Origin: a virus
Taxonomy: Duplodnaviria; Heunggongvirae; Uroviricota; Caudoviricetes
Virus record (IMG/VR): IMGVR_UViG_2579778652_000012
Span: 1 to 34,410 of that record
Strand: one strand, 5' to 3'
DNA length: 34,410 nt
In this document: positions 10,978-34,410 of the stretch, one piece after another
How the letters are laid out: every line of letters begins with the position of its first letter
Position numbering within the stretch: position 1 is the first letter of the stretch
Position numbers and translations under genes: made by a program
Notes under the pieces: generated by a model
Databases searched by the model: none
Told to the model about the DNA's origin: nothing
The model's input: the letters and a program-made list of their open reading frames with translations, nothing else

Positions 10978-10994
10978 AATGCTCTAATAAATTT
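10978..10994 (+). promoter_or_regulatory. C1-repressor operator-like 17-mer upstream of c4-icd-ant
   Basis: AATGCTCTAATAAATTT, one mismatch to the P1 C1 operator consensus ATTGCTCTAATAAATTT (recalled); a weaker second copy follows at about 11008-11024. Confidence 0.5.
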
Positions 10995-12648: not shown

Positions 12649-12665
12649 TTTGCTCTAATAAATTT
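12649..12665 (+). promoter_or_regulatory. C1 operator-like 17-mer upstream of kilA-repL
   Basis: TTTGCTCTAATAAATTT, one mismatch to consensus, followed by the conserved GTTTTCTAAGTG promoter-like extension; 70 bp upstream of kilA. Confidence 0.5.
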
Positions 12666-28738: not shown

Positions 28739-28755
28739 ATTGCTCTAATAAATAT
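28739..28755 (+). promoter_or_regulatory. C1 operator-like 17-mer upstream of the uhr-hrdC-dmt operon
   Basis: ATTGCTCTAATAAATAT, one mismatch to consensus, followed by the conserved TGTTTTTTATGTCG promoter-like extension shared with the ant and kilA sites. Confidence 0.5.
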
Positions 28756-29111: not shown

Positions 29112-30009
29112 GCACTGGAAAAACATTACTATTTATAAACTTTCTCGTGAGGCGGATCTGACCGACTTAGAAGATAAAAAGAAAATGCTCCTTTTCACGC
29201 CATGCGGTAGTCAGGATATGGCCAAGTTCGGTTTTGTATCTCCATTTGGTGATAATTCCGAAGTTATCGCTATGCATGGAAATGGTTTTATCCTTGTTGA
29301 AGCAAAGCGCGAAACAAAAATTCTTCCCCCGCCGGTTATCCAGCGAGCTATTCAAGAAAAAATTGAAAAACTTGAGCAAGAACAAGCGCGTAAACTGAAG
29401 AAAACAGAGAAGGACTCCCTGAAAGACGAAGTTCTGCATTCTCTTCTGCCACGGGCTTTTTCAAAGTTTTCTGTTATCCAGGCGATCTACGACGGTTCAA
29501 CTAAACGTATCTATATCAATGCCAGCGCGCGGCAGGCAGAGGATATGCTCGCGCTTATGCGTAAGTCTCTGGGTTCTCTTCCTGTTGTTCCCCTGAGTGT
29601 TGAAAATCCCATTGCATTAACGCTGACCGACTGGGTACGTGATGGTAGTGCTCCACAGGGATTTCAAATGGGGGATGCGGCAGAACTCAAGGCAGTGCTT
29701 GAGGATGGCGGTATTGCCCGAGTGAAAAAGCAGGATTTGGGAAGCGATGAAATTTCCACACACCTGGAAGCTGGCAAGCTCGTCACTAAGTTGGCACTCG
29801 ACTGGCAGAACCGCATTAAATTTACACTGGACCATAACTTCAGCCTTACCAGCGTCAAATTTGCGGATGAATTGCTTGAGCAGAACTCTGATATTGATAG
29901 TGAAGATGTTGCGCAGCGACTGGACGCAGATTTCTTCCTGTTGACCAGTGAAATTTCGTGCCTGGTTGATGCTCTGGTAAATGCCCTTGGCGGAGAGGCT
30001 AAGCAGTGA
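29104..30009 (+). CDS. hrdC: RdgC-like recombination-associated protein (P1 HrdC-like)
   Basis: [16 protein letters not shown]...[17 protein letters not shown]... closely parallels the E. coli RdgC N-terminus (MLWFKNLMVYRLSRE...[11 protein letters not shown]..., recalled). The internal ATG at 29104 gives 301 aa, the RdgC size; the track start at 28990 adds 38 non-homologous residues. Confidence 0.75.
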
Positions 30010-33000
30010 AAGAGCTGTGCTATGGATCTGTTTGCAGTGGAATTGAAGCCGCGAGTATTGCCTGGGAACCGTTGGGTATGCGTCCGGCGTGGTTTGCTGA
30101 AATCGAGCCTTTTCCATCGGCCGTTCTTGCGCTCCGCTGGCCCCATGTTGTCAACCTTGGCGACATGACAAAACTTGCCAAAAAAGTCTTGGCTGGGGAA
30201 ATCGAATCCCCTGACGTGCTCGTCGGGGGAACACCATGTTTTACCGCGGGGCATATGGTTCTTTGTAAAAATGGCTATAAACCAATAGAAGATGTTTGCC
30301 CTGGCGATTACGTAGTCAGTCATCTCGGGCGGTTACAACAAGTAAAAAGAGTTGGTTCAAAAATAGCTAATACGGGGTTACTTAATGCCGTTGGGCAGCC
30401 TTTAGGTATAAGAACAACCAATGACCATCCCTTCCTGGCTGTTCGGTGGAAAGCCCAAAACACCCGGAAAAATGGCACATATTTTAAGAGAGAGTTGTTG
30501 TCTGAACCGGAATGGCGAGCAGCATGTGATATGCCGGGATATCAATGGTGCGCTCTAACTAATTTCAATATTGCATCTCCAGATATTTGTTCTCGGTTCT
30601 TGTCTGAAGAACAGGCTATGTATCTTGCGGGCGCTTATGTTGGCGATGGATATATTAGGAGATGGAGAGGTAAATCTAAGAAGGCGGTTGTTTTTGGCAT
30701 AAATTGCCAGAAATTGAGAAAGTTTCATTGCCGCATACCAGAAAACATATTTTCCGTGGCAAGCGAAATCCGAGGGAGCATCAAAGTAACCTTGAATGAT
30801 ACGTGTTATGCCAATTGGCTTAATGAACATTTTGGCGAGTTAAGCCATGCTAAGCGTATCCCTGCATGGGTGATGTCGCATCCATTGCGTCATGTGTTTT
30901 TACAAGGCTATCTTGATACTGATGGGACACCAAGTGGTAAAGCGGGATTTAGAATTAATAGTGTTAGTCCTGCGCTTGCTTGGGGCGTTGCGGGGTTGTC
31001 ACAGACTTGTGGTTATGTTTCTTCGGTCAGCTTTATTGAAGTTGAGCCCAAAAAAGTGATCGAGGATCGCGTGGTAAATCAACGGAATTATTATCAGGTA
31101 ACAATCTGCCCGCAGAAATTGTCACGTAAATCAAGATTGGCTCATGGAATGCTTTTACGAACAGTCAAAGAGTTTAAATCGGTAGGCCTAGATACTGTAT
31201 ACAACATAGAAGTCGAAGGTGATCATTCCTATATCCTCAATGGTGCGGTGGTCCATAACTGTCAGGCATTCAGTATCGCGGGATTACGTGGTGGGCTTGA
31301 TGATGAGCGTGGCGCGCTAACTTTAAAGTATGTGGAGCTTGCAAATGCAATTGACGACAAACGGGCTGAGTCATTTCTCAAACCAGCCGTTATCGTCTGG
31401 GAAAATGTCCCAGGAGTCTTGTCATCGGCAGATAACGCCTTCGGATGTTTCCTTGCCGGATTGGCTGGAGAAGATGTGCCATTTGAACCAGGTGATCGAC
31501 CTGAATCAGGAAAAAGCAACGCGTTCTGGCGGTGGGATGGCAAAACCGGTTGCCATGTTCCAAAGTGGCCGCAGTGTGGTTGTATTTATGGACCGCAGCG
31601 AAAAGTGGCCTGGAGAATCCTTGATGCCCAATACTTCGGAGTGGCACAACGACGCCGACGCGTGTTTGTTGTCGCAAGTGCTCGAACAGACCTCGATCCC
31701 GCAACGGTACTTTTTGAGTTCGAAGGCGTGCGCCGGGATATTGCGCCGAGCAGAGGCGAGGGGAAGGAAGTTGCCGGAAATGTTGGAAATGGCATTAAAA
31801 GCGGGAGCCATTGGGATAACCCTGTAAATCCTCACCCGACACTTAACCAGTCACACAATACTGGTGGGATTGGTGCAAGTAACCAAGAGATTTTTGCGCA
31901 GCGAGGCAGCGGACTTGTGTATTGCATGGCGCATGGGCAAGGGGGGGCAGAAATAAAAAATGATGGGACATCACCTACTCTTACTTGTAATCATGAAGCT
32001 CCAATTGTGTTTTCTTGCAAGAAAGCTATTGCGTTTACAAGCAAAAATTATGGGCAGGATGCGGGTGTTGAGATTTCCCCAACTTTACGAGCTGGTAACT
32101 CTGCTAATAGCAATCAAAACGCGGGATGCCCACCAGCTGTTGCGTATTCGCTACAACATGCACAAATTGGGCGAAAAGATGATGCTGGACCGCAGGGTAA
32201 AGGGTGGCAAAAAGAGATAAGTTTTACTCTTGATTCCCGCGCAACAGCTGACGCCGTTGCGTTATCTTTTTGGGGGCAGGAAAGTATTGAAAAAGGCGAA
32301 TTAGGTGAGAATGGTTACTTACCTCATATGATGAGCGTTCGCCGTCTGACTCCTGTCGAATGTGAAAGGCTGCAAGGTTTTCCTGATGGACATACGTTGA
32401 TTCCAACGGGAAAGCGTAAGAAAGTTACTTCAGATGAACTTATATACCTTCGCAATCACGATCCTGATTTAAGTGAAGAAGAGGCCGCCATGCTTGCAGC
32501 TGACGGACCTCGTTACAAAGCTATCGGCAATAGTATGGCGATACCAGTAATGCGCTGGATTGGCGAGCGGATTACCAAGGCTGCATGTCGGCAGAAAGAA
32601 GGAAGTGAAACAAAAGAGCGAAAAGTTAAACCAGCGGCAGAATTCGAACGGTCCATATTCAAATGGGCTGGTGGAAAATTTGGTGTTCTGGAACAAATCT
32701 TTCGCTATTTGCCAGAAGGGAAGCGCCTGATTGAACCTTTCGTTGGTGGCGGAGCTGTCTTCATGAATGCCGGATACCAGGAAAATCTGCTAAATGATGT
32801 GAATGCTGACCTGATTAACTTTTACAAGACTCTGCAACGCGAGGCGCATTCACTTATCACTCTGGCACATCGTTTCTTCCAGGACTACAACACACAGGAA
32901 GGATACCTGGCAGTACGGAATGCGTTTAACAAACAAGTCTATGATGATTTACATCGCGCAGCGGCGTTTTTGTTCCTGAACCGACATTGTTTTAACGGAT

Positions 33001-33452
33001 TGACGCGTTACAACCAGGCCGGTGAGTTCAATGTCGGTTATGGGAAGTATAAAACTCCGTATTTCCCATTACAGGAGATGGAAGCCTTCCTCGGTGCGGA
33101 AGGGCGGTCTGAGTTTGTATGCGGTGATTTTGCAGCGGTGATTGAAGCTGCCGGAGAAGGAGATGTCATCTTTTGCGATCCGCCGTATGAACCGCTTCCA
33201 AATACAGAGGGATTCACGAACTATTCCGGTCATGACTTTAAGTTTGAAGAGCAAAAACGCCTGGTGTCTCTGTTGACGGATGCTCATCGTCGAGGTGCAA
33301 AAGTTCTCATTACTAACAGTGGCGCGCCAAACATCAGAGAGCTTTATCATGACAGTGGCTTCAGAGTGGAACCTCTTTTTGCCAGACGTTCTGTGTCTTG
33401 TAAGGGAGACACTCGAGGTGTTGCTCATGACGTTATAGCAATATTGCACTAA
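30006..33452 (+). CDS. dmt: bifunctional DNA methyltransferase Dmt: N-terminal C5-cytosine MTase (intein-interrupted) fused to C-terminal Dam-type N6-adenine MTase
   Basis: GTG start overlapping the hrdC stop, with GGAGAGG 7 nt upstream. C5-MTase motifs: [12 protein letters not shown] (PCQ, split by the intein), [23 protein letters not shown]. Dam-type domain from about nt 32613: [27 protein letters not shown] and catalytic DPPY, collinear with E. coli Dam. Confidence 0.85.
30237..31259 (+). mobile_element. intein (341 codons) with LAGLIDADG-type homing endonuclease domain, inserted in the PCQ motif of the Dmt C5-MTase domain
   Basis: Starts with Cys (CFTAGHMVL, block A-like); TTNDHPFL (block B T-x-x-H); [10 protein letters not shown] and GYLDTDGT (two LAGLIDADG-type motifs); ends ...[10 protein letters not shown] followed by +1 Cys (CQAFSIAG). 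In-frame removal restores [12 protein letters not shown]. Confidence 0.75.
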
Positions 33453-33466
33453 TAAATTTATTAGTG
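33443..33466. promoter_or_regulatory. bipartite (palindromic) C1 operator-like element overlapping the dmt stop codon
   Basis: ATTGCACTAATAAATTT (33443-33459, one mismatch to consensus) overlaps the perfect 20-bp palindrome CACTAATAAATTTATTAGTG (33447-33466), i.e. two inverted overlapping half-operators. Confidence 0.5.
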
Positions 33467-33636
33467 TAATATCGACTCAATGAATCGTGATTTATAGAGC
33501 GATTTAGCTGTTAGCCGCGACAGGCGCGGCGGCAAGTATGGCGGGGTAGTGACTCCTTCCCCATCATGACGCCGAGTTGCCAGGTTGACCATACGCCTAA
33601 GTGGCAACACCGAAGTGCGTTACGAGCTTCCAGTTT

Positions 33637-33662
33637 GCCCATCTTCGGGTGGGCGTTTTTTC
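33637..33662 (+). terminator. rho-independent terminator of the hrdC-dmt operon
   Basis: Hairpin gcccatc-ttcg-ggtgggc followed by a six-T run, about 185 nt after the dmt stop. Confidence 0.6.
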
Positions 33663-34126
33663 AGGGTTTTCGTCATGGTTAGCGACTTTGCGGCGGTTTA
33701 TAAACTGACCATTAAAGTAAATGCAAACGATGATCTGATGATGGTAGCGGCCTAAGAAGCCAGACGCCACGGGGTATGAGTCGTCCCCCGTCAAAAAATC
33801 GACCGCAGAGTGTCCCCGTCTGTGTATTAGGGAACGGGGAGGCACAACAGGTAAGGGCGCTGGTGTGATTAACCAGATGAACGAGAAGGGGCCATCTGTT
33901 GGTCAGCGTCCTTTCCTGTTGCGTCTTCTTTTCAGCGTAACAGCGGTGCTTAACAGCACTTTGGGTACAGTTCCACGAATTTACGGGTATATCCCGTCAT
34001 GCTGAAGGCGCTAATCACGCTGGAAGCCAGGGTTGTGCATCCCCTGTTACCGAATTGCAGCCAGGGCGCGGTGCGCCGAAAAGCATACGGAGGTGGAAGC
34101 CCTCGCCGGAGACGTACCCGGCAAGT

Positions 34127-34202
34127 GATGGTGTAGCTCAGCGGTTAGAGCGGTTGACTGTTAATCAACGGGTCGATGGTTCAAATCCATCCACCATCGC
34201 CA
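34127..34202 (+). tRNA. tRNA-Asn (anticodon GTT)
   Basis: Manual cloverleaf: acceptor GATGGTG/CACCATC, D-arm GCTC-AGCGGTTAG-AGC, anticodon arm GTTGA-CTGTTAA-TCAAC (GTT), T-arm GATGG-TTCAAAT-CCATC, discriminator G, encoded CCA. Confidence 0.85.
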
Positions 34203-34204
34203 AT

Positions 34205-34280
34205 GCCGGTTTAGCTCAGTTGGTAGAGCGCCTGCCTTGTAAGCAGGATGTCAGCGGTTCGAGTCCGTTAATCGGCACCA
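34205..34280 (+). tRNA. tRNA-Thr (anticodon TGT)
   Basis: Manual cloverleaf: acceptor GCCGGTT/AATCGGC (one G-U), D-arm GCTC-AGTTGGTAG-AGC, anticodon arm CCTGC-CTTGTAA-GCAGG (TGT), T-arm AGCGG-TTCGAGT-CCGTT, encoded CCA; 2 nt after tRNA-Asn. Confidence 0.85.
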
Positions 34281-34288
34281 GCACAACA

Positions 34289-34363
34289 GGTAAGGGTATT
34301 TTGCGACGTCGGAGATCGCCGAGCTTGGCAGAGGGTTCGAATCCCTACGAAGTACCCTTACCG
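34289..34363 (+). other. non-canonical tRNA-like element (canonical T-arm inside a long extended stem; possible degenerate third tRNA or structured RNA)
   Basis: Canonical T-loop GGTTCGAATCC at 34333-34343; 10-bp perfect closing stem GGTAAGGGTA/TACCCTTACC, extendable to about 20 bp over 34282-34368; the 25 nt between acceptor-like and T-arm cannot form both D and anticodon arms. Confidence 0.35.
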
Positions 34364-34410
34364 TTGTGATGAATGCGCAGGCTGATGCGCGAAAGACATT
34401 GCAGCTATTG

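What the first reader, a model, noticed from the sequence alone, without database searches (positions are those of the whole stretch)
33443..33466. Perfect 20-bp palindrome forming a bipartite operator that overlaps the dmt stop codon
CACTAATAAATTTATTAGTG is a perfect palindrome whose left half extends into an operator-like 17-mer (ATTGCACTAATAAATTT) and whose right half is the inverted copy. It sits exactly on the dmt TAA TAA stop and ahead of the operon terminator and the tRNA cluster. Such overlapping inverted operators bind repressor more tightly and can loop; here it could gate read-through from dmt into the tRNA region or serve a promoter for the tRNA genes.
Basis: partly seen in the sequence, partly recalled or inferred. 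Interest (0 to 1): 0.4.

Follow-up and report, generated by a model that had tools for sequence, protein, structure and literature searches.

The report
Known P1 ban-operon C1 operator (Op72ab)
The palindrome is the long-known double binding site for the phage P1 C1 repressor, which shuts off the promoter of the ban operon (tRNAs plus a DnaB-like helicase) in a P1-like plasmid prophage. It is ordinary except for a rare single-base change that happens to make the palindrome perfect.

Summary
CACTAATAAATTTATTAGTG (33447-33466) is a perfect 20-bp palindrome, the only one of that length in the window (0.027 expected). It consists of two inverted 17-mers matching the P1 C1 operator consensus: 33443-33459 (+), 1 mismatch, and 33454-33470 (-), 2 mismatches. 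It lies on the dmt TAA TAA stop.

The window is a P1-like phage, about 97% identical to P1, P7 and RCS47. The site is the ortholog of the feature the P1 record annotates as [quoted passage not shown]. That operator overlaps promoter P1ban (-35 33444-33449, -10 33467-33472). P7 is annotated the same way and names the tRNAs among the controlled genes.

The 28-bp operator is almost invariant in 95 relatives, while its flanks are polymorphic. The perfect symmetry is not conserved. All 95 relatives, and all 454 E. coli records found by a control query, carry T at 33448 (the exact consensus a-site). The window carries A, which also changes the last Dmt residue from Leu to His. This allele was found again only in one NCBI assembly, probably the window's source. 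A at that operator position occurs in 4 of 19 annotated P7 operators, so binding is probably retained.

Verdict: already known, low interest.

The parts
33443..33459 (+). C1 operator half-site a (Op72a / Obana): ATTGCACTAATAAATTT, 1 mismatch to the consensus
   Evidence: Orthologous to the AF234172 protein_bind feature 68667-68683.
33454..33470 (-). C1 operator half-site b (Op72b / Obanb): ATTACACTAATAAATTT, 2 mismatches. It overlaps site a by 6 bp (AAATTT).
   Evidence: Orthologous to AF234172 68678-68694, complement strand. Identical to P7 ban_b.
33447..33466 (.). Perfect 20-bp palindrome (the finding)
33441..33472 (.). Full inverted repeat: 16-nt arms, 94% complementary
   Evidence: repeat I1.
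33448..33448 (+). Rare T->A substitution. It is position 6 of site a and position 5 of the P1ban -35 hexamer. It changes the last Dmt codon from CTC (Leu) to CAC (His) and makes the palindrome perfect.
33444..33449 (+). P1ban -35 hexamer, TTGCAC (TTGCTC in P1)
   Evidence: Coordinates transferred from the AF234172 minus_35_signal 68668-68673 through alignment A1.
33467..33472 (+). P1ban -10 hexamer, TAATAT, with a 17-bp spacer. Invariant in 95 of 95 relatives.
33427..33458 (+). P2ban, a promoter predicted in the P1 record: -35 ATGACG 33427-33432, -10 TAAATT 33453-33458, with a 20-bp spacer that makes it weak
   Evidence: Transferred from AF234172 68651-68682.
33450..33455 (+). dmt stop codon TAA plus a second in-frame TAA. 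Both are supplied by the invariant CTAATAA core of the operator.
33473..33661 (+). Leader of the Pban transcript. Its 3' part (about 33570-33671) corresponds to the P1 'dicF-like region'.
   Evidence: Rfam gives no DicF match.
33636..33661 (+). Intrinsic terminator (TGCCCATCTTCGGGTGGGCG followed by TTTTTT) downstream of Pban
   Evidence: Invariant in the relatives.
34127..34202 (+). tRNA-Asn (GTT), first gene of the ban operon
   Evidence: P1 and P7 annotation.
34205..34280 (+). tRNA-Thr (TGT)
28739..28755 (+). Monovalent C1 operator Odmt (Op68), which controls uhr-hrdC-dmt, the operon that ends inside Op72ab
   Evidence: Maps to P7 Op(dam) and to P1 Odmt at 65145-65161.

Best explanation
The site is the bivalent C1 operator Op72ab (Obanab) together with the promoter Pban of a P1-like plasmid prophage. 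Two asymmetric 17-bp C1 sites lie in inverted orientation and overlap by 6 bp. Together they cover the -35 hexamer, the spacer and most of the -10 hexamer of P1ban. In the lysogen, C1 occupies both sites and excludes RNA polymerase; established P1 biology adds that the co-repressor Lxc/Bof helps. This keeps the ban operon off: the leader or 'dicF-like' RNA, tRNA-Asn, tRNA-Thr, tciABC, tRNA-Ile and the DnaB-like helicase Ban. When C1 is inactivated by Coi or Ant1/2, or early after infection, Pban fires. The palindrome is a geometric by-product of two inverted, overlapping asymmetric sites. Symmetry itself is not what is selected. The window's T->A at 33448 is a rare, probably tolerated operator allele that makes the central 20 bp perfectly symmetric. 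Shown here: orthology, sequence anatomy, conservation and the rarity of the allele. Inferred from P1 annotation and literature: C1 binding, repression and operon extent.
For: The window is 97% identical to P1, P7 and RCS47 over 33200-34410 and collinear with P7 41.5-71.8 kb. The P1 record annotates the orthologous 28 bp as 'divalent C1-controlled operator Obanab; former Op72ab; controls expression of ban', with P1ban overlapping it. P7 is annotated likewise and names the tRNAs as controlled. Alignment shows 27 of 28 operator bases identical to P1 and P7. Using flank-anchored retrieval, which does not bias the operator itself, positions 33443-33472 are invariant or nearly so in 95 relatives. 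Positions 33435-33440 just upstream, the last Dmt codons, are highly polymorphic, including non-synonymous changes. Positions 33473-33476 are also polymorphic. Three other C1 operators sit at their canonical places in the window (Oc4 at 10978, OkilA/rep at 12649, Odmt at 28739), so a C1 regulon is present. A at operator position 6 occurs in 4 of 19 annotated P7 operators, including ban_b. A weight matrix built without the ban sites scores the window's a-site at 24.4 bits, against 26.4 for the consensus and 20.7 for Op72b. Literature confirms a 17-bp asymmetric consensus, 22 operators and the roles of Lxc, Coi and Ant (PMC8546580). It also confirms that ban is C1-controlled and induced on lytic induction (PMC4713147).
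Against: No binding or expression data exist for this particular sequence. The c1 gene lies outside the window, so the presence of a cognate repressor in this genome is inferred only from the other operators. The generic sigma-70 scan did not call P1ban, because its -35 hexamer matches only 3 of 6. A strong intrinsic terminator lies between Pban and the tRNAs. Expression of the tRNAs and ban from Pban therefore requires read-through or processing, which I could not test. The original Op72 papers (Lurz 1987; Heinzel 1989) were not readable here, so I could not check whether T->A at this position was ever isolated as an operator-constitutive mutation.
Confidence: 0.93

Rival explanations
1. The palindrome acts at the RNA level, as a 3' hairpin that stabilises or terminates the dmt mRNA, rather than as a protein-binding site in DNA.
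For: The RNA 33441-33475 can form a 14-bp hairpin with an MFE of -13.4 kcal/mol. It sits exactly at the end of dmt.
Against: The stem is almost entirely A-U and no U-tract follows it, so the terminator scan does not call it. All 95 relatives and 454 E. coli records keep a U-U mismatch in that stem; the T allele gives -9.2 kcal/mol. Selection therefore preserves the exact C1 consensus at site a rather than base pairing. The same 17-mer recurs at three other promoter-proximal sites in the window with no partner arm.
Confidence: 0.03
2. The main role of C1 bound here is as a transcriptional roadblock that stops dmt-operon transcripts from running into the tRNA/ban region.
For: The operator lies at the 3' end of dmt on the same strand. 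A tightly bound double repressor could in principle block elongation.
Against: The dmt operon has its own C1 operator and promoter (Odmt/Op68 at 28739). It is therefore repressed under the same conditions, leaving little to block. A strong intrinsic terminator 170 nt downstream already handles read-through. The P1 record marks an overlapping promoter as 'sigma 70 promoter P1ban', without the 'predicted' qualifier it gives P2ban, which explains the operator's position.
Confidence: 0.05
3. The A at 33448, and hence the 'perfect' palindrome, is a sequencing or assembly error or a neutral private mutation with no functional meaning. The real element is the standard imperfect Op72ab.
For: The non-T allele was found 0 times in IMG/VR (0 of 93), GTDB genomes and JGI metagenomes. 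A 45-mer with A found 0 records in complete E. coli genomes, while the T control found 454. The closest relative has T.
Against: The same allele, with the matching Dmt ...AILH C-terminus, is present in NCBI assembly GCA_016735905.1, on a contig recorded for 2 samples. It is therefore at least reproducible in deposited data, although the two may share reads. 'Neutral' cannot be separated from 'functional' without binding data.
Confidence: 0.5

Closest known systems
Bacteriophage P1 operator Op72ab / Obanab with promoter P1ban (AF234172 68667-68696)
   Same: The genomic position is orthologous: it spans the dmt stop codon, upstream of the dicF-like region, tRNA-Asn, tRNA-Thr and onward to ban. 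27 of 28 operator bases are identical. The geometry is the same: two inverted 17-mers overlapping by 6 bp, and -35 and -10 hexamers 17 bp apart.
   Different: The window has T->A at position 6 of half-site a, so the centre is a perfect 20-bp palindrome (26 of 28 symmetric positions against 24 of 28 in P1). The last Dmt residue is His instead of Leu. The upstream dmt allele is 394 aa longer because it contains an intein.
Phage P7 Op(ban[a]) / Op(ban[b]) (AF503408 70972-70999)
   Same: Same site and annotation. The record states explicitly that it controls the tRNAs. The flanking leader haplotype is the same as in the window.
   Different: P7 has the consensus T at the variant position.
Monovalent P1/P7 C1 operators (Op51/Oc4, Op53/OkilA, Op68/Odmt and others)
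   Same: They share the 17-bp asymmetric consensus and promoter-proximal placement. Three are present in this window.
   Different: They are single sites with no inverted partner, so they form no palindrome.
Symmetric operators of dimeric phage repressors (lambda CI, 434, P22 type)
   Same: They look like palindromes overlapping a promoter.
   Different: The unit of recognition here is an asymmetric 17-mer that also works alone. Symmetry arises only from juxtaposing two units, and the conserved state is imperfect. That C1 binds as a monomer is from my own knowledge of the P1 literature and was not checked here.

Membership tests
P1-type C1 repressor operator, bivalent class (Op72ab/Obanab) | Match to the asymmetric 17-bp consensus ATTGCTCTAATAAATTT | tested here: met
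   33443-33459 (+) has 1 mismatch and 33454-33470 (-) has 2 mismatches. There are 5 matches in the window against 0.27 expected. Weight-matrix scores are 24.4 and 20.7 bits, within the range of annotated operators.
P1-type C1 repressor operator, bivalent class (Op72ab/Obanab) | Two sites in inverted orientation overlapping by 6 bp to give a 28-bp incomplete palindrome | tested here: met
   Coordinates, the inverted repeat, and identical geometry to the P1 features 68667-68683 and 68678-68694.
P1-type C1 repressor operator, bivalent class (Op72ab/Obanab) | Overlap with a sigma-70 promoter (P1ban) so that bound repressor occludes -35 and -10 | tested here: met
   By transfer of the P1 annotation through alignment A1: TTGCAC, 17 bp, TAATAT at 33444-33472. 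The generic scan did not call it independently.
P1-type C1 repressor operator, bivalent class (Op72ab/Obanab) | Orthologous position in a collinear P1-like genome, between dmt and the tRNA/tci/ban operon | tested here: met
P1-type C1 repressor operator, bivalent class (Op72ab/Obanab) | Purifying selection on the operator relative to its flanks | tested here: met
   In 95 relatives, 33443-33472 is invariant or has at most 2 variants per column, while the flanks are polymorphic.
P1-type C1 repressor operator, bivalent class (Op72ab/Obanab) | Physical binding of C1 (with or without Lxc) and C1-dependent repression of ban | not testable with these tools
   This needs EMSA, footprinting or reporter assays. 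c1 is outside the window. For P1 itself, ban is reported to be C1-controlled (PMC4713147).
Rho-independent terminator (as a reading of the palindrome itself) | G+C-rich stem followed by a U-tract | tested here: not met
   The stem is A-U rich (-13.4 kcal/mol) and is followed by UAAUAUCGAC. The terminator scan does not report it.
DicF sRNA (Rfam RF00039), for the downstream 'dicF-like region' | Match to the Rfam covariance model | tested here: not met
   No DicF match at E <= 1 in 33300-34410. The label comes only from the P1 record.

The most novel reading that the evidence does not exclude
The rare T->A that perfects the palindrome could be a natural operator mutation with a phenotype. It might change C1 affinity or cooperativity at half-site a, or the strength of the P1ban -35 hexamer. 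The lysogen carrying this plasmid prophage would then express the leader RNA, the tRNAs and Ban at an altered level, as a natural analogue of the laboratory 'bac' (ban-constitutive) or operator-up alleles. The evidence neither supports nor excludes this. Position 6 tolerates A in other operators, yet site a is T in every other relative examined.
Probability: 0.12. Interest if true: 0.25.

Novelty: already known. Interest (0 to 1): 0.1.

Why it matters
It matters little beyond correct annotation. The site should be labelled as the Op72ab/Obanab operator and Pban promoter of a P1-like prophage. The downstream terminator, tRNAs and hairpins should be read as parts of the C1-controlled ban operon, not as a separate unit behind dmt. 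The comparative data add a small point. Across hundreds of natural P1-like elements, the a-site keeps the exact consensus and the palindrome stays imperfect. This argues that selection acts on two independent asymmetric sites rather than on symmetry. The window's allele gives a ready-made natural variant for testing position 6 of the C1 operator.

Tried and rejected
(1) Chance palindrome: rejected by shuffles.
(2) Terminator or RNA hairpin for dmt: rejected. The stem is A-U rich, there is no U-tract, and relatives conserve a mismatch in it.
(3) I looked for the A allele elsewhere. There were 0 non-T matches in IMG/VR, GTDB genomes and JGI metagenomes. No plasmid or E. coli record reached 99% identity over 141 bp. 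A 45-mer designed so that only the A allele can seed found nothing, while the T control found 454 records. The allele turned up only through an exact-protein look-up of Dmt, in GCA_016735905.1.
(4) Literature: the P1 genome paper (PMC523184) is not held, and 'Op72' occurs in none of the papers returned by the one search that included the term. I therefore could not read the original promoter mapping or operator mutagenesis and relied on GenBank feature tables plus three open papers.
(5) Rfam search for DicF in the leader: no match.
(6) The whole-leader fold is not more stable than shuffles, z = -1.2, so I make no claim of a structured sRNA. Two haplotypes of a central hairpin do look compensatory.
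(7) D6, a more distant relative, was checked for an equivalent operator upstream of its tRNAs. None matched the P1 consensus, so it gives no deeper comparative test.

Full report
**Observation.** The sequence is as described. 33443-33459 reads ATTGCACTAATAAATTT, and 33447-33466 reads CACTAATAAATTTATTAGTG, which equals its own reverse complement. The long dmt ORF ends with TAA at 33450-33452 and a second in-frame TAA follows.
- It is the only perfect palindrome of 20 bp or more in the window. Dinucleotide-preserving shuffles give a mean of 0.027 per window.
- The P1 C1 operator consensus ATTGCTCTAATAAATTT matches five times at 3 or fewer mismatches, against 0.27 expected.
- Two of those matches form the finding: 33443-33459 (+), 1 mismatch, and 33454-33470 (-), 2 mismatches.
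As an inverted repeat it spans 33441-33472.

**What it is.** The window belongs to a P1-like phage or plasmid prophage.
- 33200-34410 is about 97% identical to P1, P7, RCS47, JL22 and others, and the whole window is collinear with P7 41.5-71.8 kb.
- In the curated P1 record (AF234172) the orthologous 28 bp, 68667-68694, are annotated as [quoted passage not shown]. It is built from Obana (+) and Obanb (-).
- The same record places the sigma-70 promoter P1ban, and a predicted P2ban, over the operator.
- Alignment transfers these features to the window. The P1ban -35 hexamer is TTGCAC at 33444-33449 and the -10 hexamer is TAATAT at 33467-33472, with a 17-bp spacer.
- P2ban has ATGACG at 33427-33432 and TAAATT at 33453-33458. 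Its 20-bp spacer makes it unconvincing.
- The generic promoter scan misses P1ban because its -35 hexamer matches only 3 of 6.

**Conservation.** I retrieved relatives with a pattern anchored only in the flanks, so the operator itself was not constrained. I then tabulated 95 sequences: 93 IMG/VR contigs plus P1 and P7.
- Columns 33443-33472 are invariant or carry at most two variant sequences.
- The six columns immediately upstream (33435-33440) are highly polymorphic. They change the last Dmt residues non-synonymously (…VIAIL… against …VLGIL…).
- Columns 33473-33476 are also polymorphic.
- The constraint therefore falls on the operator and promoter, not on the Dmt C-terminus.

**The perfect palindrome is a rare allele.**
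- All 95 relatives have T at 33448, so their a-site is the exact consensus and the palindrome has a central mismatch. The window has A.
- A pattern allowing any non-T base there found nothing in GTDB genomes or JGI metagenomes.
- A 45-mer that can only seed on the A allele found no record among 5,426 complete E. coli genomes. The T control found 454 records.
- The closest relative, plasmid NZ_CP122822, also has T.
- The A allele, with the matching Dmt ending …AILH, was recovered only in NCBI assembly GCA_016735905.1, contig JADPVP010000021.1 (95.9 kb). That contig is recorded for two samples and is probably the source of the window.
- The substitution also changes the fifth base of the P1ban -35 hexamer. 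Neither T nor A matches the TTGACA consensus there.
- It changes the last Dmt residue from Leu to His.

**Is the variant likely to bind C1?** Among 19 full-length C1 operators annotated in P7, position 6 is T in 14 and A in 4 (mat, ban_b, 26, hdm). A weight matrix built without the ban sites scores the window's a-site at 24.4 bits. The consensus scores 26.4 bits, Op72b scores 20.7 bits, and most annotated operators score 17-25 bits. Binding is therefore probably retained. Whether affinity or cooperativity shifts is untested.

**Mechanism.**
- Shown here: two inverted asymmetric sites overlap by 6 bp and blanket the -35 hexamer, the spacer and four bases of the -10 hexamer.
- From P1 literature: C1 recognises a 17-bp asymmetric consensus at 22 dispersed operators. 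Lxc strengthens binding through a ternary complex, and Coi and Ant1/2 inactivate C1 (PMC8546580).
- From P1 literature: ban is C1-controlled and rises on lytic induction (PMC4713147). The genes of this operon were scored non-essential in a genome-wide CRISPRi assay on phage P1 (PMC10695390).
- Inferred: in the lysogen the doubly occupied operator occludes RNA polymerase at Pban. On derepression, transcription starts near 33479.
- The window also holds three monovalent C1 operators at canonical positions: Oc4 at 10978, OkilA/rep at 12649 and Odmt at 28739. A C1 regulon is therefore present even though c1 itself lies outside the window.

**Downstream context.**
- It closes a 189-nt leader whose 3' part the P1 record calls a "dicF-like region". 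Rfam does not recognise DicF there.
- Transcripts from Pban, as well as any read-through from dmt, meet this terminator. Expression of the tRNAs (34127-34280) and of ban from Pban needs partial read-through.
- P1 and P7 annotate one operon, but I could not test read-through.

**Rival readings.**
- An RNA hairpin at the dmt 3' end is unlikely. The stem is A-U rich, no U-tract follows it, and every relative keeps a mismatch in it.
- A roadblock role is unnecessary, because dmt has its own C1 operator and a terminator follows.
- The single-base variant could still be a neutral mutation or an error shared by two records.

**Comparison with known systems and novelty.** All testable defining features of the bivalent P1 C1 operator are met: consensus match, inverted 6-bp overlap, promoter overlap, orthologous position and selective constraint. 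Only physical binding cannot be tested here. The element is already known and annotated in the P1 and P7 reference records. The only new item is a rare operator allele. Interest is low.

**Limits.** The primary Op72 papers and the P1 genome paper are not in the library. Statements about monomeric binding, two repressor molecules per Op72ab, the bac mutants, and looping (which as far as I recall was described for the c1 operators, not Op72) rest on my own recollection and are marked as such.

Noticed in passing
window 30006-33452 (+), especially aa 77 to about 470: The dmt allele is 1148 aa, against 754 aa in P1 and 672 aa in P7. It has Pfam Hint_2 and LAGLIDADG_3 matches upstream of the C5-methylase and D12 Dam domains. 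The insert begins and ends like an intein and sits exactly in the catalytic PCQ motif of the cytosine methylase: GGTP|CFTAGH...VVHN|CQAFS. Long alleles also occur in RCS47, Ro157c2YLVW and a P1 isolate (OP279344).
   Followed up: partly
window 33836-33935 and 34278-34372 (+): Two long, very stable RNA hairpins flank the tRNA-Asn/tRNA-Thr pair: -48.4 kcal/mol with z -5.5, and -42.7 kcal/mol with z -5.7. Each starts with the same 16-mer, GCACAACAGGTAAGGG (33842-33857 and 34281-34296). The second contains a T-arm-like GGGTTCGAATCCC. Both are conserved in relatives, and hairpin 1 has one doubly compensated pair (CG 9, UA 7 of 22 variants). Neither is annotated in the P1 record. They may be processing sites or tRNA-like remnants in the ban-operon transcript.
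   Followed up: partly
window 33473-33661 (+): The Pban leader exists in 29 variants among 93 relatives. A central hairpin has two haplotypes that look mutually compensated: GGU..CUGGG..CCCAG..ACC against GGC..CGGGG..CCCC..GCC. The whole leader is not more stable than shuffles (z -1.2), and Rfam finds no DicF despite the P1 'dicF-like' label.
   Followed up: partly
window 10978-10994, 12649-12665, 28739-28755 (+): Three further C1 operator matches, each with 1 mismatch, map to P7 Op(c4), Op(rep)/OkilA and Op(dam)/Odmt. The window therefore carries the immI region and the dmt operon control sites of the C1 regulon.
   Followed up: yes
window 21783-26398: This stretch has no BLAST match to P7, although the flanks are collinear. 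It corresponds to the par/rep plasmid-maintenance region, so the window probably carries a different partition or replication (incompatibility) allele from P7.
   Followed up: no
L105 (phage D6) 1-1560: D6 shares the leader terminator and the tRNA pair with the window, but a pmgS-like gene lies upstream instead of dmt. There is no P1-type C1 17-mer at 3 or fewer mismatches anywhere in the 3.7-kb stretch examined. The operator-promoter module is therefore not conserved at that distance.
   Followed up: partly
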